From: Escherichia coli
GTDB taxonomy: Bacteria; Pseudomonadota; Gammaproteobacteria; Enterobacterales; Enterobacteriaceae
Length of the DNA stretch: 64,000 nt
Strand: one strand, 5' to 3'
Assembly: GCF_016903815.1 (NCBI RefSeq)
Contig: NZ_CP069973.1
Part shown: one piece after another, positions 12,856 to 18,800 of the stretch
Layout: every line of letters starts with the position of its first letter
Position numbering within the stretch: position 1 is the first letter of the stretch
Program-made: the position numbers

Positions 12856-15800
12856 TAATGCTTTGCGGGCCGACAAGAAATGTCGGCCCGCATTATTCAG
12901 GCACTTTCGCGAATGGGTTCGATTTCATTCAGCGTATCAATTAACGGTTGCGGCTTACCAATAAGATAACCCTGCATATAATCGATCCCCAAAGAGAGCA
13001 CCGCCTCGCGGATCTCTTCGTTTTCAACGTACTCTGCCACTACCCGCATTTTCTTCATTCGCGCCAGGTGGCAAATCGACGCCACTATCTGATAATCCAG
13101 ACTATTTGACACAATATTGCGGATAAAACTGCCGTCAATTTTAAGCAGATCGGCATTCACATTTTTAAGCCGCGCATAGCTGGCGTAGCCGGTGCCGAAA
13201 TCATCAATCGCAATCTGGCAGCCTAATTCCTGAAGATGCTGCAAGGTGATTTGCGCCTGCTTAACATTGGTCAGAGCATTACTTTCGGTGACTTCAAAAA
13301 TAAGTTGCCACGCTTCAATCTGATATTTAGCCAGCAGCTGACTGACTTCAACGGGAAAACGAGCCTGACATACCGAGGTTGGCGACAGATTAATGGCAAA
13401 ACGGTGAGCGGGCATCTTCGCTCTGTTTTCAGCCATAAATTGCAGCGTATGTTCAATGACCCACATGTCGATACTCGACGATAAACCAAATTCGTGCGCG
13501 ACCGGCAAGAAGCTGTCGGGGCTGATCAGTTCATCATTCTCACCTTTCATACGCAGAAGAATTTCATGGTAGACATCGCCACGCATACCGGTAATCGGCT
13601 GGGCCATCAGGAAAAAATGGTTGTGTTCCAGCGCCTGCTGTAGCCGATTCATCATCGCGACTTTATCTTTCAATTCGCGTTGCAAATACATTGCCCCGCG
13701 ACGCTGCATATTTTCAGGGGCGTTGGTCACGATGGAAAGCTCGGCGACCGTATTTAGCTCTCCCAGCAGCAGGTAGATATGATTCACTGGCGAGCGCACA
13801 TAGCAGTAACTGACGCCAATCTGCGGTTGCATCGGCATTCCATCCCAAAAGAAACGAAATTGCTTGAGATGGCTATCCAGTGCGGTAATGCGCTCCTGGT
13901 GCGATTCTGTATTCAGTCGCAGCGCGAGATCGTTACCCGAAAGCTGATAAACATCCTCACCCGGTTCCAGCAAGGGTGACAGCCAGTGAGAAAGTTTTTG
14001 CTTGTATTGAATCCGCAGCATGATGCCATAGTTCTTAACCAGCATTTCCATGCCAGGGATGCGTAAATAACAAAGCGCAGACCAGGGGGCATCACGCAAC
14101 GCGCGATTCAGGGCGCGAACATTTGGCAGATGAACCACCGGGTCCACATACGCAAGCCGCTGAATGCGTCTGGCTACCGCTCTCTGACGGGTTGCCAGTA
14201 CAGCCATATAATTGACAATAAAAGAGAATACCAGATAACTGGAGGAGGTTATGGTCAGCTGCGTGGTATAGCCAGGATAAATGGGAATGTAATTTTGATA
14301 GCTGTGGATGCTGATCATCAACACGACCGCCCAGAGCAGCGAAATTAGCTTATAACCATAGCGCATCGCTCCCCACATCATCAGGGGCAGCAATAATGAC
14401 AAGGTATAGTTGGTGCTAAAAATTGTGCTTTTTTCATTTAACGGCATGCATAACAGCAGCAGTAAAGCACCTAATGCCAGTAGCCAGAGTGCGAACTCTT
14501 TTTTGGTGACTTTTACATCAACCTGCTGTTTTAATTGCGAATAATAACTACGTAAATAAAACGGATTTCGCACTGCACGAATGATGAAGTAGCACAGCGG
14601 GACACCAATCAGATTGCCCACCAGTAAGGCCTGATAATTGATTAAGGTCCCGAGGTTAAAAGGCATGACGCCGACCAGATTTTCTCTGCTCGCCAGTAAT
14701 CCTACAAACGCAGCAAACTGGAAAAGTATCAGAAACAGCGTTGCAGGAAACACAATCTGCCAGAATATACGCTGGGAAATTAAACGGGTATCACCATGTG
14801 AAACGTTGTTACGCCGGGGAGTAAAGACCCTGTAACCGCCCCAACAGAGAATGATAATGATAATAAAATTAGCCGTTAATGAGAGCGTTTCGTAAAAACC
14901 CAGCTCTGCATATTTGCGGACAAAAATCCCTAAGGCGATCCCTGGCAATGCCGCCCAGCTGAAAAACATCATCATGCTGATCATCAGAGCCAGAGGCAGA
15001 TAAAAGAGAAAAACCTCACCGGAAGAAATATGCGCGAAAGTATTAATGTGGGCGAAAATGGGCAAGATTAAAGAAGGCAGGAACAGCGGAAGCCCCCACC
15101 ATTTATCACGTATTTTTATATAAGTTGCATTCAGTTTCATAGATGCTCAGCAGAATCCCCCACATCCTGAAGGAGGTGTATTCAGACAGGCATCCCACCT
15201 GACTTCGAATGATGATTATTCATCACTATAGAGAGCATTGATTCTAAGTGTCATATGAAAGTTCCAATTGATATATATCAAACAAAATAACCCTGATTAA
15301 TGAATTATTACGTTTATCATGTTAATTCATCATTATTACATCATCATTGTAAATAATTAAATTAACTTCCATAACATTAAAATATGTATCCACTGACGCT
15401 TTTTTACATAACGAAGAATTGACCATTTTGTCCTGTTGTGCCTTAATGTAAGTACCGTCCACAGCGTGGGACATACTTCAAGGAACCTTTTGTGAGTCAG
15501 GCAACCAGTATGCGAAAACGACACCGATTTAACAGTCGCATGACCCGTATCGTACTGCTCATCAGCTTTATCTTCTTCTTTGGCCGTTTTATCTACTCGT
15601 CCGTCGGTGCATGGCAGCACCATCAGAGCAAAAAAGAAGCTCAGCAATCCACACTCTCCGTCGAATCACCGGTACAACGTTAGCGGTTACCTTCTCCACT
15701 TTCACAGAACATAACGGCACCTCGCTGTCGGATGCTTTTGCTCTTTGGGATTATCAAAGCGGCAGATATTCTTTCATCTTAAATTTTACGTCTTTGTCCT

Positions 15801-18800
15801 GACTGATGTTTATCCTGTTTGGCTGCGAAATAAATATAAAATTAATACATATGTTTTAATGATGTATTTTTATAAATTATTTTCCACATGAATTTTAATA
15901 AATTTAATCTATTCCTTAATACGCAATACATTTACTTTCCTCTTTTGATGATCTTAAATGTCTTATTTTTCGTAATGTGTATAACAAGGAATAGTGATGA
16001 AATTTAAAAAATGTCTTCTGCCTGTGGTAATGTTAGCGTCATTCACTCTGGCAGGATGCCAGTCAAATGCTGATGATCATGCCGCCGATGTTTATCAAAC
16101 CGATCAACTGAATACCAAACAAGAAACTAAAACCGTTAATATTATTTCCATTCTTCCCGCAAAAGTTGCCGTAGACAACTCCCAAAATAAACGAAACGCA
16201 CAAGCCTTCGGCGCGCTTATTGGTGCAGTCGCTGGCGGTGTTATTGGCCACAACGTCGGGTCTGGCAGCAATTCCGGAACGACGGCAGGTGCAGTTGGCG
16301 GCGGAGCTGTTGGCGCGGCAGCGGGTTCTATGGTGAATGATAAAACCTTAGTGGAAGGTGTTTCTCTAACGTATAAGGAAGGCACCAAAGTGTATACCTC
16401 CACCCAGGTGGGTAAAGAGTGCCAGTTTACGACAGGTTTAGCCGTTGTTATTACCACGACGTATAACGAAACGCGTATTCAGCCAAATACCAAATGTCCT
16501 GAAAAGAGCTAATAATCAGGAGGAGTCATGAAGAAAGTTTTTCTTTGCGCCATCTTAGCTTCCTTAAGCTATCCGGCTATCGCCTCATCATTGCAGGATC
16601 AACTCTCTGCTGTCGCAGAAGCGGAACAGCAAGGTAAAAATGAAGAGCAAAGGCAGCATGACGAATGGGTCGCGGAGCGCAACAGGGAAATCCAGCAAGA
16701 GAAGCAACGTCGCGCAAACGCCCAGGCCGCCGCTAACAAAAGAGCGACAACGGCAGCGGCAAATAAGAAAGCTCGTCAGGATAAACTGGACGCCGAAGCC
16801 TCTGCGGACAAAAAACGCGATCAAAGTTATCAAGATGAGCTACGCAGCTTAGAGATTCAGAAACAAAAACTGGCGCTGGCGAAAGAAGAAGCCCGCGTTA
16901 AGCGAGAAAACGAATTTATCGATCAGGAACTGAAGCACAAAGCTGCGCAAACCGATGTGGTGCAATCTGAAGCTGACGCAAACAGGAATATGACTGAGGG
17001 CGGTCGAGATCTGATGAAAAGCGTGGGCAAAGCAGAAGAGAACAAATCGGACAGCTGGTTTAATTAATCGATGTAAGTAACTTCAAGCCTATAATTCTTG
17101 AAGATAAAAAACCCTCTGTAGTAACAGAGGGTTTTGTTCATTCATAGTGCAGGGATCAAAATCATTCCCACTCAATGGTAGCTGGCGGCTTGCCGCTGAT
17201 GTCATACACCACGCGGGAAATACCGTTCACTTCATTGATAATGCGGTTGGAAACGCGACCGAGGAAATCGTACGGCAGATGCGCCCAGTGTGCGGTCATA
17301 AAGTCGATGGTTTCGACAGCACGCAGAGAGACAACCCAGTCATACTTACGACCATCGCCCATTACGCCAACGGAACGTACTGGCAGGAAGACGGTGAACG
17401 CCTGGCTGACTTTGTCGTACAGGTCCGCTTTACGCAGTTCTTCAATGAAGATGGCGTCAGCGCGGCGCAGCAGGTCACAGTACTCTTTCTTCACTTCACC
17501 CAGAACACGAACGCCAAGGCCTGGTCCCGGGAACGGATGACGGTACAGCATGTCGTACGGCAGGCCCAGCTCCAGACCAATCTTACGCACTTCGTCTTTG
17601 AACAGCTCTTTCAGCGGTTCAACCAGGCCCATCTTCATCTCTTTCGGCAGGCCGCCCACGTTGTGGTGAGATTTGATGACGTGTGCTTTACCGGTTGCAG
17701 ACGCCGCAGATTCGATAACGTCAGGGTAGATAGTACCCTGCGCCAGCCACTTCACGTCTTCCAGTTTCAGCGCTTCTTCATCGAATACTTCAACGAAAAC
17801 GCGCCCGATGATTTTACGTTTTGCTTCCGGATCGTTTTCGCCAGCCAGCGCTGACAGGAAGCGATCTTCTGCCGGAACGTGAACAATATTGAGACCAAAG
17901 TGATCGCCAAACATATCCAGAACCTGCTCTGCTTCGTTGAGACGCAGCAGGCCGTTGTCGACGAATACGCAAGTCAGGTTTTTACCGATAGCGCGGTGCA
18001 GCAGCATTGCGGTTACGGAGGAATCCACGCCACCAGAGAGGCCGAGGATCACTTTATCGTCGCCTACCTGCTCGCGGATGCGAGCTACGGCGTCGTCGAT
18101 AATTTTCGCTGGCGTCCACAGGGCTTCACACTGGCAGATATCACGCACAAAACGCTCCAGCATGCGCATACCCTGGCGGGTGTGAGTCACTTCCGGATGG
18201 AACTGTACACCATAGAAGCGTTTTTCTTCGTTAGCCATAATGGCAAACGGGCAGCTTTCGGTGCTGGCTACGGTGACGAAGTCGGACGGGATAGCGGTAA
18301 CTTTATCGCCGTGGCTCATCCAGACATCGAGCAGCGGTTTACCGTCTGCAGTCAGCGCATCTTCGATACCGCGAACCAGTGCGCTGTCGTTTACGACTTC
18401 AACCTGCGCGTAGCCAAATTCACGTTCGTTAGAGGCTTCAACGTGACCGCCCAACTGCATTGCCATGGTCTGCATGCCATAGCAAACGCCGAATACCGGT
18501 ACGCCTGCTTCAAAGACATACTGCGGCGCACGCGGGCTGTTTTCTTCGGTGGTGCTTTCCGGGCCGCCGGAAAGAATAATGCCGCTTGGGTTGAAGTCAC
18601 GAATTTGTGCTTCTGTCACATCCCACGCCCACAGTTCGCAGTAAACACCCAGTTCACGCACGCGGCGCGCAACCAGTTGAGTGTACTGAGAACCGAAGTC
18701 CAGAATGAGGATGCGATGCTTATGAATGTTTTCCGTCATTGACGCTTATTCCGAGGCAAGTGAAACAGATAATATAAATCGCCCGACATGAAGTCGGGCG

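What the first reader, a model, noticed from the sequence alone, without database searches (positions are those of the whole stretch)
15141..15993. AT-rich intergenic stretches flanking the tiny yfgG gene
Both intergenic regions around yfgG (15141-15491 and 15684-15993) are long, AT-rich and contain no convincing ORF. Such regions in the core genome often hold unannotated small RNAs or small proteins, or are bound by nucleoid proteins. I see no specific structured element, so this is a low-priority flag.
Basis: inference. Interest (0 to 1): 0.15.

Follow-up and report, generated by a model that had tools for sequence, protein, structure and literature searches.

The report
Ordinary regulatory DNA around yfgG
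The two AT-rich gaps around the small E. coli gene yfgG hold no hidden gene; they carry the promoters, leaders and terminators of the neighbouring genes, mostly already described, plus a conserved folded leader in front of pdeF that has not been described.

Summary
The gaps 15141-15491 (351 bp, GC 0.34) and 15684-15993 (310 bp, GC 0.30) are among the most AT-rich stretches of the window, and neither holds a believable ORF.

Gap 1 is the divergent control region of pdeF and yfgG:
- the published class II FNR promoter of pdeF, with a perfect FNR box at 15268-15281;
- the published sigmaS-type yfgG promoter, with its start site near 15453;
- an H-NS-bound AT-rich spacer between them, whose length (133-137 bp) and AT content are kept across Enterobacteriaceae.

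The 50-aa "hypothetical protein" that PGAP calls here in nearly all RefSeq E. coli lies on the yfgG promoter and shows no coding signature.

Gap 2 is the yfgG 3' UTR, with a published Term-seq 3' end at 15775 and a Rho-termination region near 15891. It is followed by the AT-rich left edge and promoter of the accessory yfgHI pair, which was inserted between yfgG and the ancestral yfgG/guaA terminator.

The one new item is the 93-nt pdeF leader. It carries hairpins conserved in 76 of 78 loci, two of them presenting GGA in the loop, as CsrA-binding sites do. That link is untested.

The parts
15141..15233 (-). pdeF 5' UTR (about 93 nt), running from the start site implied by the FNR box at -41.5 down to the ATG at 15140..15138
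   Evidence: The FNR box at -41.5 and the -10 TAGAAT are published (PMC3718329). The geometry can be read directly from the sequence. An ATG sits at the homologous position in all 79 loci.
15208..15227 (-). 5'-proximal hairpin of the pdeF leader (GUGAUGAA-UAAU-CAUCAU)
   Evidence: RNAfold minimum-energy and centroid structures. A hairpin is present at this place in most genera with different stem sequences, for example CCGCG/CGCGG in Klebsiella and Kluyvera. Mean z-score is -1.0 over 77 leaders.
15187..15201 (-). Leader hairpin 2: CAGG-UGGGAUG-CCUG, with GGA in the loop; almost invariant in sequence
   Evidence: It is the only helix found by RNAalifold. Helix 1 is 97% paired in 72 distinct sequences. 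G39, G40 and A41 are invariant or nearly so.
15156..15174 (-). Leader hairpin 3: UCCUUCA-GGAUG-UGGGGGA. The sequence CAGGAUG (15163-15169) spans the end of the 5' stem arm and the loop
   Evidence: GGA sits at the expected place, inside a hairpin, in 73 of 77 distinct leaders. Stems differ between genera: ACCC/GGGU, GCCUC/GAGGC, AGCC/GGCU, UCCUUCA/UGAAGGA. Four of 5 pairs show changes on both sides, and 0 of 500 shuffles reach the observed covariation score.
15138..15201 (-). Extent of the covariance-model match for the conserved pdeF leader element
   Evidence: Model R1 scores 72.5 bits, E = 1.2e-20. There is one hit in the window and one per locus in 76 of 78 sources.
15241..15246 (-). pdeF -10 hexamer TAGAAT
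   Evidence: Published. Conserved as TA(G/A/C)AAT across 21 genera.
15268..15281 (.). FNR box TTGATATATATCAA, a perfect match to the consensus
   Evidence: Read from the sequence and published as a class II site at -41.5. It is present 113-144 bp from the pdeF ATG in 74 of 79 loci.
15282..15418 (.). AT-rich spacer between the two divergent promoters, with partly conserved blocks: GTAAATA near 15350, CATAACAT near 15370, CTGACGC at 15394 and TTTTACAT at 15403
   Evidence: Its length is 133-137 bp in 71 of 79 loci, and its mean GC is 0.29 across genera. Conserved blocks are shown. An H-NS site is recorded in this spacer.
15322..15474 (-). 50-aa ORF annotated by PGAP as a hypothetical protein (WP_000017552.1); judged spurious
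   Evidence: 8 synonymous against 46 non-synonymous codon differences, spread over codon positions as [16, 21, 17]. The yfgG control gives 30 against 6 and [7, 0, 29]. The start codon is lost in Escherichia sp. E1V33. Homologs occur only in Escherichia and Shigella, many of them truncated. The ORF is not in the curated MG1655 annotation.
15419..15447 (+). yfgG promoter: -35 TTGACC (15419-15424), a 17-bp spacer ending in TGC (T at -15, G at -14, C at -13), and -10 CTTAAT (15442-15447)
   Evidence: TTGACC-17-CTTAAT was predicted by Shimada 2014. EsigmaS ChIP gives a peak and a yfgG start site at 2627275 in U00096.2 coordinates, which maps to window position 15453 within 1 nt. AATTGACC and CTGTGCCTTAAT are nearly invariant in 78 sequences and recognisable in Erwinia.
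15454..15491 (+). yfgG 5' UTR with a small hairpin (GUCC-ACAGCGUG-GGAC, 15457-15472) and the Shine-Dalgarno sequence AAGGAA (15480-15485) ahead of the GTG start
   Evidence: The stem is GCCC/GGGU in most genera and GUCC/GGAC in E. coli. Ribo-RET and Onc112 reads at the GTG start are listed in PMC11188072 Table S4. The N-terminus MSQ is conserved where residue 7 is Leu.
15684..15775 (+). yfgG 3' UTR, ending in a terminator-type hairpin (15737-15766) and the U-rich tail UAUUCUUUC
   Evidence: A Term-seq 3' end at MG1655 position 2,629,573 (+) appears in all three growth conditions and maps to window position 15775. RNAfold places the hairpin so that it ends 9 nt before that position.
15776..15930 (+). 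AT-rich, poorly conserved tract holding a Rho-termination region (peak near 15891)
   Evidence: A Rho-termination region at 2,629,689 (+) has Rho score 8.5 and p = 1e-48. Indels and low identity separate E. coli, E. albertii and Pseudocitrobacter here.
15931..15993 (+). Candidate yfgHI promoter (TTTACT 15931-15936, 17-bp spacer, TTAAAT 15954-15959), leader and Shine-Dalgarno sequence AAGGAA (15987-15992)
   Evidence: The blocks ATTTACTTT and ATGATCTTAAAT, and their spacing, are identical in all Escherichia lineages and in Pseudocitrobacter. No start-site data were available to me, so this is an inference.
17106..17135 (.). Ancestral bidirectional terminator shared by yfgG and guaA (AAAAAACCCTCTG-TAGTAA-CAGAGGGTTTT), now separated from yfgG by yfgHI
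   Evidence: The same hairpin lies directly between yfgG and guaA in the Citrobacter loci L008, L014 and L013 and the Atlantibacter locus L023, which lack yfgHI. yfgHI is present only in Escherichia and Pseudocitrobacter among the 80 loci.

Best explanation
Both gaps are regulatory DNA serving the flanking genes.

Gap 1 is a compact divergent control region, ancestral to Enterobacteriaceae. Read from pdeF towards yfgG it holds:
- the 93-nt pdeF leader;
- the class II FNR-dependent pdeF promoter, which switches pdeF on without oxygen;
- a fixed-length AT-rich spacer of about 137 bp that binds H-NS and probably further factors;
- the sigmaS-type yfgG promoter and its short leader.

Gap 2 has two origins. 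Its first 92 nt are the yfgG 3' UTR, ending at an intrinsic-type terminator; transcripts that read through are stopped by Rho in the AT-rich tract. The remainder is the left edge of the yfgHI insertion, with that pair's own promoter about 40-60 bp upstream of yfgH.

Shown by published work: FNR dependence of pdeF, the yfgG start site, H-NS binding in gap 1, the 3' end at 15775 and the Rho dependence.

Inferred here: the role of the spacer, the yfgHI promoter, and the function of the pdeF leader hairpins. I think the leader hairpins most likely act on the mRNA. The 5' hairpin would stabilise it. The two hairpins that present GGA would bind a protein such as CsrA, or act as a ribosome standby site.
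For: Layout and annotation.

pdeF promoter: the FNR box and -10 match the published class II promoter and are conserved in 74 of 79 loci.

yfgG promoter: it matches the published prediction and the start site from sigmaS ChIP, and it is nearly invariant across genera.

H-NS: a site is recorded in the spacer.

Spacer: length and AT content are conserved. The whole gap has a median length of 351 bp with an interquartile range of 348-352.

No coding signal in the annotated ORF.

Gap 2: Term-seq 3' end and Rho-termination region; terminator fold; yfgHI as an insertion between yfgG and the shared terminator; conserved promoter-like blocks upstream of yfgH.

Leader hairpins.
Against: I could not obtain start-site data for yfgH or for pdeF under anaerobic growth; the Thomason 2015 paper is not held.

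The H-NS evidence is in vitro SELEX and covers gap 1 only.

The simple promoter scan finds no excess of promoter-like sites: 3 found against 4.1 expected.

The covariation support for leader hairpin 3 is modest. Native flanks fold at -6.06 kcal/mol against -5.57 for chimeras, and only 73% of cells pair in the model-fitted alignment.

The full leader does not fold better than shuffled sequence: z = -0.32.
Confidence: 0.8

Rival explanations
1. Gap 1 encodes a real 50-aa protein (15474..15322, minus strand), as annotated by PGAP in nearly all RefSeq E. coli genomes.
For: The ORF is annotated as a 'hypothetical protein' under the match in almost every listed genome. It is intact in several Escherichia lineages.
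Against: Substitutions are not codon-structured. There are 8 synonymous against 46 non-synonymous differences, spread evenly over codon positions and no better than in the two wrong frames; yfgG gives 30 against 6. The start is lost in E1V33. Truncated forms of 34-46 aa are common, and there is no homolog outside Escherichia and Shigella. The weak tblastn similarity in Citrobacter and Salmonella falls on the conserved yfgG promoter blocks. The ORF starts downstream of the yfgG start site on the opposite strand. It is absent from the curated MG1655 annotation and from the Ribo-seq tables I could read.
Confidence: 0.04
2. One of the gaps holds a small regulatory RNA. The most plausible form is a 3'-UTR-derived sRNA made from the yfgG 3' UTR (15684-15775).
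For: A reproducible RNA 3' end at 15775, classed 'orphan', appears in three growth conditions. A stable hairpin precedes it.
Against: There is no Rfam match. I found no evidence of a 5' end or processing site inside the gap. The 3' UTR sequence is poorly conserved even in E. albertii, unlike known 3'-UTR sRNAs with conserved seed regions. No 3' ends are reported anywhere in gap 1.
Confidence: 0.08
3. The conserved inverted repeats in the pdeF leader are DNA operators for a transcription factor acting downstream of the start site, for example nitrate-responsive NarL/NarP at an FNR promoter. On this view they are not RNA hairpins.
For: They lie at about +30 to +80 of an FNR-dependent promoter, where repressors often bind. 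Some stems resemble NarL heptamers, for example TACACCT in E. coli, which matches 6 of 7 positions (my reading).
Against: Stem sequences change while pairing is kept: ACCC/GGGT, GCCTC/GAGGC, AGCC/GGCT. That pattern preserves a fold, not a protein-recognition sequence. G-U pairs work only on the mRNA strand. The invariant nucleotides are in the loops (GGA), not in the arms.
Confidence: 0.12
4. The AT-rich tract of gap 2 is neutral cargo that arrived with yfgHI and has no function beyond being H-NS-prone foreign DNA.
For: yfgHI is an accessory insertion. The middle of the gap (about 15790-15925) is poorly conserved, with indels between close relatives.
Against: A strong Rho-termination signal maps inside it, and the promoter-proximal 60 bp are strongly conserved. 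At least the two ends of the gap are therefore functional.
Confidence: 0.25

Closest known systems
Class II FNR-dependent promoters, specifically the published yfgF (pdeF) promoter
   Same: A perfect TTGAT-N4-ATCAA box is centred 41.5 bp upstream of the start site implied by the -10 TAGAAT. This is exactly as described for E. coli K-12.
   Different: Nothing differs; it is the same element. New here is only its conservation in 74 of 79 enterobacterial loci.
SigmaS-type promoters with C at -13 and a TG-extended -10 (my knowledge of the Hengge laboratory consensus)
   Same: The sequence TGTGC-CTTAAT gives T at -15, G at -14 and C at -13. The spacer was recovered in EsigmaS ChIP-seq together with a yfgG start site.
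   Different: RpoD holoenzyme also binds this spacer in vitro. SigmaS dependence of yfgG expression was not tested here.
CsrA-binding mRNA leaders and the CAGGAUG repeats of CsrB (glgC, flhDC, dgcZ/ydeH, dgcT/ycdT)
   Same: Two GGA motifs are each presented by a short hairpin, 28 nt apart, in the leader of a c-di-GMP enzyme gene. E. coli hairpin 3 carries CAGGAUG, and many genera have CUGGA, which matches the CLIP-derived [A/C]UGGA motif.
   Different: Neither motif overlaps the pdeF ribosome-binding site. In hairpin 2 the usual A or C before UGGA is U or G. No CsrA binding data exist for pdeF: it is absent from the E. coli CLIP tables, which came from aerobic cultures where this FNR-dependent gene is off.
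H-NS-bound AT-rich divergent promoter spacers
   Same: GC is about 0.25, the region sits between divergent promoters, an H-NS site was found by genomic SELEX, and IS elements have inserted repeatedly.
   Different: The AT-rich spacer is ancestral and length-constrained across genera. It is not recently acquired DNA, which is the usual H-NS target.
Long 3' UTRs with an intrinsic 3' end backed up by Rho termination (Adams et al. 2021)
   Same: There is a hairpin with a U-rich tail at a mapped 3' end, followed about 115 nt later by a bicyclomycin-sensitive termination region.
   Different: The hairpin is weak, with several G-U pairs, a bulge and an interrupted U tract. The 3' end could instead be an exonuclease-trimmed product of Rho termination.

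Membership tests
Class II FNR-dependent promoter | FNR box TTGAT-N4-ATCAA | tested here: met
   TTGATATATATCAA at 15268-15281 matches all 10 consensus positions. It is conserved in 74 of 79 loci.
Class II FNR-dependent promoter | Box centred near -41.5, overlapping the -35 region, with a recognisable -10 | tested here: met
   The -10 TAGAAT at 15246..15241 puts the start site near 15233-15234 and the box centre (15274.5) at about -41. This agrees with the published description.
Class II FNR-dependent promoter | Expression depends on FNR and on anaerobiosis | not testable with these tools
   Reported in the literature (PMC3718329 and PMC4207228, citing Lacey 2010).
Small regulatory RNA gene | Membership of a described RNA family | tested here: not met
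   A permissive Rfam scan of 14000-17500 gave only chance hits at E >= 1.1.
Small regulatory RNA gene | Its own promoter and terminator inside the gap, giving a discrete short transcript | tested here: inconclusive
   A terminator-type 3' end exists at 15775, but the only known upstream start is the yfgG promoter. Promoter-like sites are not enriched. No 5'-end data were available.
Small protein gene | Purifying selection on the reading frame (excess of synonymous change, third-position bias) | tested here: not met
   ORF50 gives 8 synonymous against 46 non-synonymous differences, at codon positions [16, 21, 17]. The yfgG control gives 30 against 6, at [7, 0, 29].
Small protein gene | Evidence of translation | tested here: inconclusive
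   No entry in the held parts of two Ribo-seq small-ORF tables. The files are truncated, and pdeF-side transcription is anaerobic.
Intrinsic terminator | Stem-loop followed by a U-rich tract, with an RNA 3' end 7-9 nt after the stem | tested here: met
   The hairpin spans 15737-15766, the tail is UAUUCUUUC, and the Term-seq 3' end is at 15775. The stem is weak.
CsrA-binding leader | GGA (ANGGA or [A/C]UGGA) in the apical loop of a short hairpin | tested here: met
   Hairpin 2 has the loop U(G/U)GGAUG in essentially all loci. Hairpin 3 holds GGA in its loop in 73 of 77 leaders. Motif definition from PMC5207318.
CsrA-binding leader | Two or more sites within reach of one CsrA dimer (about 10-63 nt; my knowledge) | tested here: met
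   The two GGA motifs are 28 nt apart in E. coli (leader positions 39-41 and 67-69).
CsrA-binding leader | One site overlapping the Shine-Dalgarno sequence or start codon (typical of repressed targets) | tested here: not met
   The nearest GGA is 16 nt upstream of the AUG (leader positions 76-78, AUG at 94). The region next to the AUG is GAGCAUCU and has no GGA.
CsrA-binding leader | Physical binding by CsrA, or an effect of csrA on expression | not testable with these tools
   pdeF is not listed in the E. coli CsrA CLIP supplements. The Salmonella CLIP supplements are not held.
Horizontally acquired gene islet (yfgHI) | Patchy presence among close relatives at a conserved chromosomal junction | tested here: met
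   yfgHI is found only in Escherichia and Pseudocitrobacter among the 80 loci. The shared yfgG/guaA terminator has been displaced to a position after yfgI.
Horizontally acquired gene islet (yfgHI) | Mobility genes or flanking repeats | tested here: not met
   No integrase or transposase ORFs lie between yfgG and guaA. Flanking repeats were not searched for specifically.

The most novel reading that the evidence does not exclude
The 93-nt pdeF leader is an undescribed cis-regulatory RNA, conserved across Enterobacteriaceae. It consists of a 5' stabilising hairpin and two hairpins that present GGA. Through these, CsrA or another reader of GGA loops would set how much of the anaerobic c-di-GMP phosphodiesterase is made. 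This would add post-transcriptional control by the Csr carbon-storage system on top of oxygen sensing by FNR.
Probability: 0.3. Interest if true: 0.45.

Novelty: already known. Interest (0 to 1): 0.2.

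Why it matters
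For the flagged feature itself, little changes. The gaps are ordinary control regions, and their main parts are already in the literature: the FNR promoter, the yfgG start site, the H-NS site, the Term-seq 3' end and the Rho-termination region.

Three by-products are useful:
- A "hypothetical protein" present in thousands of RefSeq E. coli annotations appears to be an artefact lying on a promoter.
- The AT-rich spacer between pdeF and yfgG is held at 133-137 bp across genera. This points to a phased nucleoprotein architecture rather than foreign DNA.
- The pdeF leader is a concrete, testable candidate for post-transcriptional control of a c-di-GMP enzyme.

Tried and rejected
1. Rfam scan at permissive thresholds: only chance hits.

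2. Consensus promoter and terminator scan: no enrichment. It missed the real FNR-dependent promoter and the yfgG promoter, so it was not informative.

3. Long-range pairing of GGAUGC (hairpin 2 loop) with GCAUCU just upstream of the pdeF AUG. It appears in the E. coli minimum-energy fold. I rejected it as a conserved feature because natural variants are not compensated: L069, L059, L045, L052 and L072 (my inspection).

4. A conserved upstream mini-ORF, AUG-CCU-GUC-UGA, inside hairpin 2. Rejected because the AUG is ATA, ATT or AAG in several genera, and the stop is absent in Enterobacter.

5. RNAalifold on plain MAFFT alignments recovered only hairpin 2, because the stems of the other hairpins are misaligned. 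I therefore used a covariance model and alignment-free tests.

6. SdiA control of yfgHI. The orthologous srgIL pair is SdiA-regulated in S. Typhi, but of the four E. coli reporter fusions built only fepE responded, so the E. coli yfgHI locus showed no SdiA regulation. A TTTTC-N8-TTTTA near-match at 15881 is not conserved in K-12.

7. PdhR and FlhDC links to yfgH are weak. One is a low-ranking prediction and the other a minor SELEX peak.

8. I tried to assign the conserved blocks upstream of yfgG to a known regulator: CpxR, ArcA, Fur, Zur, MntR, NikR, RcnR or PhoP. I compared them by eye with consensus sequences recalled from memory. None fitted.

9. CsrA CLIP data. pdeF is absent from the E. 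coli tables, and the Salmonella supplements are not held. Neither result is informative for an anaerobically expressed gene.

10. The Thomason 2015 dRNA-seq paper and the Weaver 2019 mBio paper could not be retrieved.

Full report
**What is there**

The window segment is the E. coli pdeF(yfgF)-yfgG-yfgH-yfgI-guaA region.
- pdeF lies on the minus strand at 12897..15140.
- yfgG (63 aa) is at 15492..15683.
- yfgH starts at 15994, and yfgI is at 16528..17067.
- guaA lies on the minus strand at 17162..18739.

The segment is present in 5422 of 5426 complete E. coli genomes at 95% identity or more. The window is not K-12: identity is about 98.4% to the K-12-like strain 5A (hit H13) and 99.9% to strain P15-25.

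- Gap 1 (15141-15491) is 351 bp with GC 0.342.
- Gap 2 (15684-15993) is 310 bp with GC 0.303.
- Their cores are at GC 0.25 and 0.23.
- The window mean is 0.517, and 330-bp windows have sd 0.045, so the gaps lie about 4-5 sd below average.
- Only two other spots in the 64 kb fall below 0.35.

Rfam gives nothing meaningful.

**Gap 1, pdeF side**

A perfect FNR box, TTGATATATATCAA, lies at 15268-15281. A -10 hexamer, TAGAAT, lies at 15246..15241 on the minus strand. This places the start site near 15233 and the box centre at about -41. It is exactly the class II FNR-dependent yfgF promoter described in the literature (PMC3718329, summarising Lacey 2010).

I fetched 80 loci carrying a yfgG homolog from one genome per species. 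The divergent pdeF/yfgG pair is present in essentially all Enterobacteriaceae sampled. The FNR box sits 113-144 bp from the pdeF ATG in 74 of 79 sequences.

**Gap 1, yfgG side**

The promoter has these parts:
- -35 TTGACC at 15419-15424;
- a 17-bp spacer ending in TGC;
- -10 CTTAAT at 15442-15447.

This matches the promoter predicted from RpoD genomic SELEX. It also fits a yfgG start site at 2627275 (U00096.2 coordinates), listed with an EsigmaS ChIP-seq peak over this spacer. I converted that coordinate to window position 15453, within 1 nt, using a +1976 offset recalled from memory.

The C at -13 together with the TG is the sigmaS-type pattern; that is my own knowledge. The motifs AATTGACC and CTGTGCCTTAAT are nearly invariant in 78 distinct sequences. 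They are recognisable even in Erwinia, which lacks pdeF.

The 38-nt leader has a small hairpin with one compensatory change: GCCC/GGGU in most genera, GUCC/GGAC in E. coli. A Shine-Dalgarno sequence, AAGGAA, follows. Re-analysed Ribo-RET and Onc112 data show initiation at the GTG start.

**Gap 1, the AT-rich middle**

The distance from the FNR box to the yfgG -35 is 133-137 bp in 71 of 79 loci. This stretch is AT-rich in almost every genus, with mean GC 0.29. The median gap length is 351 bp, with an interquartile range of 348-352, although PdeF itself falls to about 51% amino-acid identity across the set.

The AT-richness is therefore ancestral and constrained, not a sign of recent acquisition. 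Shimada et al. mark this spacer as containing an H-NS site by genomic SELEX.

Partly conserved blocks lie at about -47 to -101 from the yfgG start: GTAAATA, CATAACAT, CTGACGC and TTTTACAT. In Klebsiella and Kluyvera one of them forms the palindrome AACATTAATTAATGTT. I could not assign them to a known regulator.

**The annotated ORF in gap 1**

PGAP annotates a 50-aa "hypothetical protein" (WP_000017552.1) at 15474..15322 in almost every RefSeq genome listed. The curated MG1655 record does not.

I compared the window with four diverged Escherichia lineages:
- The ORF shows 8 synonymous against 46 non-synonymous codon differences.
- Changes are spread evenly over codon positions, [16, 21, 17].
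- This is no better than in the two wrong frames.
- yfgG, in the same alignment, shows 30 against 6 and [7, 0, 29].

Further points against it:
- The start codon is lost in Escherichia sp. E1V33.
- Protein-level homologs exist only in Escherichia and Shigella, and many are truncated.
- The ORF overlaps the yfgG promoter and 5' UTR on the opposite strand.

I conclude that it is a spurious call.

**The pdeF leader: the one new item**

The 93 nt between the start site and the ATG are not AT-rich, and they are strongly conserved. Three hairpins recur.
1. A 5'-proximal hairpin whose sequence differs between genera: GAUGA/UCAUC in Escherichia, Citrobacter and Salmonella; CCGCG/CGCGG in Klebsiella and Kluyvera. 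It folds on average 1 sd better than shuffles over 77 leaders.
2. CAGG-U(G/U)GGAUG-CCUG, almost invariant, including the loop.
3. A hairpin whose stem varies (ACCC/GGGU, GCCUC/GAGGC, AGCC/GGCU, UCCUUCA/UGAAGGA) while the loop keeps GGA.

A covariance model of hairpins 2 and 3 finds exactly one hit per locus in 76 of 78 sources. In the window it matches 15138-15201 on the minus strand at 72.5 bits.

On the model alignment:
- 84.5% of cells pair, against 80.2% in shuffles (0 of 500 shuffles reach this).
- Four of 5 pairs in hairpin 3 show double changes.
- That alignment is fitted to the structure, so these counts lean towards it.

An alignment-free test gives a modest effect:
- GGA lies at the expected place inside a hairpin in 73 of 77 leaders.
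- Native flanks fold at -6.06 kcal/mol, against -5.57 +/- 0.2 for chimeras.
- Only 1 of 200 chimera sets folds as well.

GGA in apical loops of short hairpins, in pairs, is the recognition pattern of CsrA. CsrA is known to control other c-di-GMP enzymes; that is my own knowledge. No data link CsrA to pdeF, and neither motif overlaps the ribosome-binding site. I treat the CsrA link as a hypothesis, at about 0.3.

**Gap 2**

In species where yfgG and guaA are adjacent, a single bidirectional terminator lies between them: AAAAAACCC(C/T)CTG...CAGAGGGTTTT. In E. coli the same hairpin lies after yfgI, at 17106-17135. yfgH and yfgI occur only in Escherichia and one Pseudocitrobacter among the 80 loci. 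A 2024 study notes that orthologs exist in S. Typhi but not in Typhimurium. yfgHI, together with gap 2, is therefore an insertion between the yfgG stop codon and the ancestral terminator.

Published Term-seq data place a reproducible RNA 3' end at MG1655 position 2,629,573 (+), which is window position 15775, in all three growth conditions. A Rho-termination region peaks at 2,629,689 (+), which is window position 15891, with Rho score 8.5 and p = 1e-48. RNAfold puts a 12-bp hairpin at 15737-15766, followed by UAUUCUUUC, which ends exactly at 15775.

The AT-rich middle (about 15790-15925) is poorly conserved, with indels. The last 60 bp are conserved in all Escherichia lineages and in Pseudocitrobacter. 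They contain TTTACT-17-TTAAAT (15931-15959) and the Shine-Dalgarno sequence AAGGAA. This is the probable yfgHI promoter, and it is an inference.

**Translation data**

The supplementary tables of two studies list no novel ORF in either gap. One is a complementary Ribo-seq study and the other a family-wide intergenic small-ORF study. The held files are truncated, so this is weak negative evidence.

**Verdict**

The flagged gaps are real and unusually AT-rich, but they are ordinary regulatory DNA whose main parts are already published. There is no evidence for a hidden sRNA or small protein, and the one annotated small ORF is most likely an artefact. The conserved pdeF leader is worth a targeted experiment. 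It does not raise the overall interest of the finding much.

Noticed in passing
window 15322-15474 (minus strand): NCBI PGAP annotates a 50-aa 'hypothetical protein' (WP_000017552.1) here in nearly every RefSeq E. coli genome listed. It lies on the yfgG promoter and shows no coding signature, so it is probably a propagated mis-annotation.
   Followed up: yes
window about 15243-15248 and about 15290-15300; loci L083 and L084: Gap 1 is a recurrent insertion-sequence target. An IS5-like element (ISKpn26) sits at about 15248 in strain E5, where the DNA from there through yfgG into the yfgH start is deleted. An IS5 inserted 104 bp upstream of pdeF (window about 15244, essentially the same site) in a gallium-evolved laboratory line (PMC6928379). 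An IS1 sits in the AT-rich core in strain ECA64.
   Followed up: partly
window 15994-15999: yfgH is annotated from GTG at 15994, but an ATG follows immediately at 15997. The Shine-Dalgarno sequence AAGGAA (15987-15992) is spaced better for the ATG, so the true start may be one codon later.
   Followed up: no
L001 (strain P15-25), locus 1-1640 and 3788-4100: In the strain closest to the window, pdeF is annotated as a pseudogene (frameshift and internal stop). A phage lysis-type gene (DUF2514) also follows yfgI where guaA is expected, which suggests a prophage integrated at the yfgI/guaA junction.
   Followed up: no
L085-L087 (Erwinia-type contigs): Outside Enterobacteriaceae, yfgG sits between ppx and guaA without pdeF, and an mgtE-family Mg/Co/Ni transporter gene follows it directly. 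This fits the reported nickel/cobalt phenotype of yfgG. The yfgG promoter and leader layout is still recognisable.
   Followed up: partly
L010 and L012 (Salmonella enterica subsp. arizonae and diarizonae), gap of 413-415 bp: These two loci carry an insertion of about 60 nt between the yfgG -10 element and the leader hairpin. This lengthens an otherwise fixed-length gap.
   Followed up: no
L046 and L049 (Citrobacter youngae group), pdeF leader: These leaders have an insertion of about 15 nt after hairpin 2, and CATGA replaces the GGA motif in the hairpin 3 loop. They are a natural exception that could serve as a test case for the role of GGA.
   Followed up: no
window about 15369-15386; other loci: A 16-bp perfect palindrome, AACATTAATTAATGTT, lies about 75 bp upstream of the yfgG start site in Klebsiella, Kluyvera and Pseudocitrobacter. 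It is degenerate in E. coli (ACATTAAAATATGT). It looks like an operator, but I could not match it to a known regulator.
   Followed up: partly
window 15626 (MG1655 2,629,424, plus strand): Published Term-seq lists an RNA 3' end inside the yfgG coding sequence, 134 nt after the start codon. Its origin is unknown.
   Followed up: no
window about 34400-34950 and 52480-52820: These are the only other stretches of the 64-kb window with GC below 0.35 in 330-bp windows. I did not examine them.
   Followed up: no
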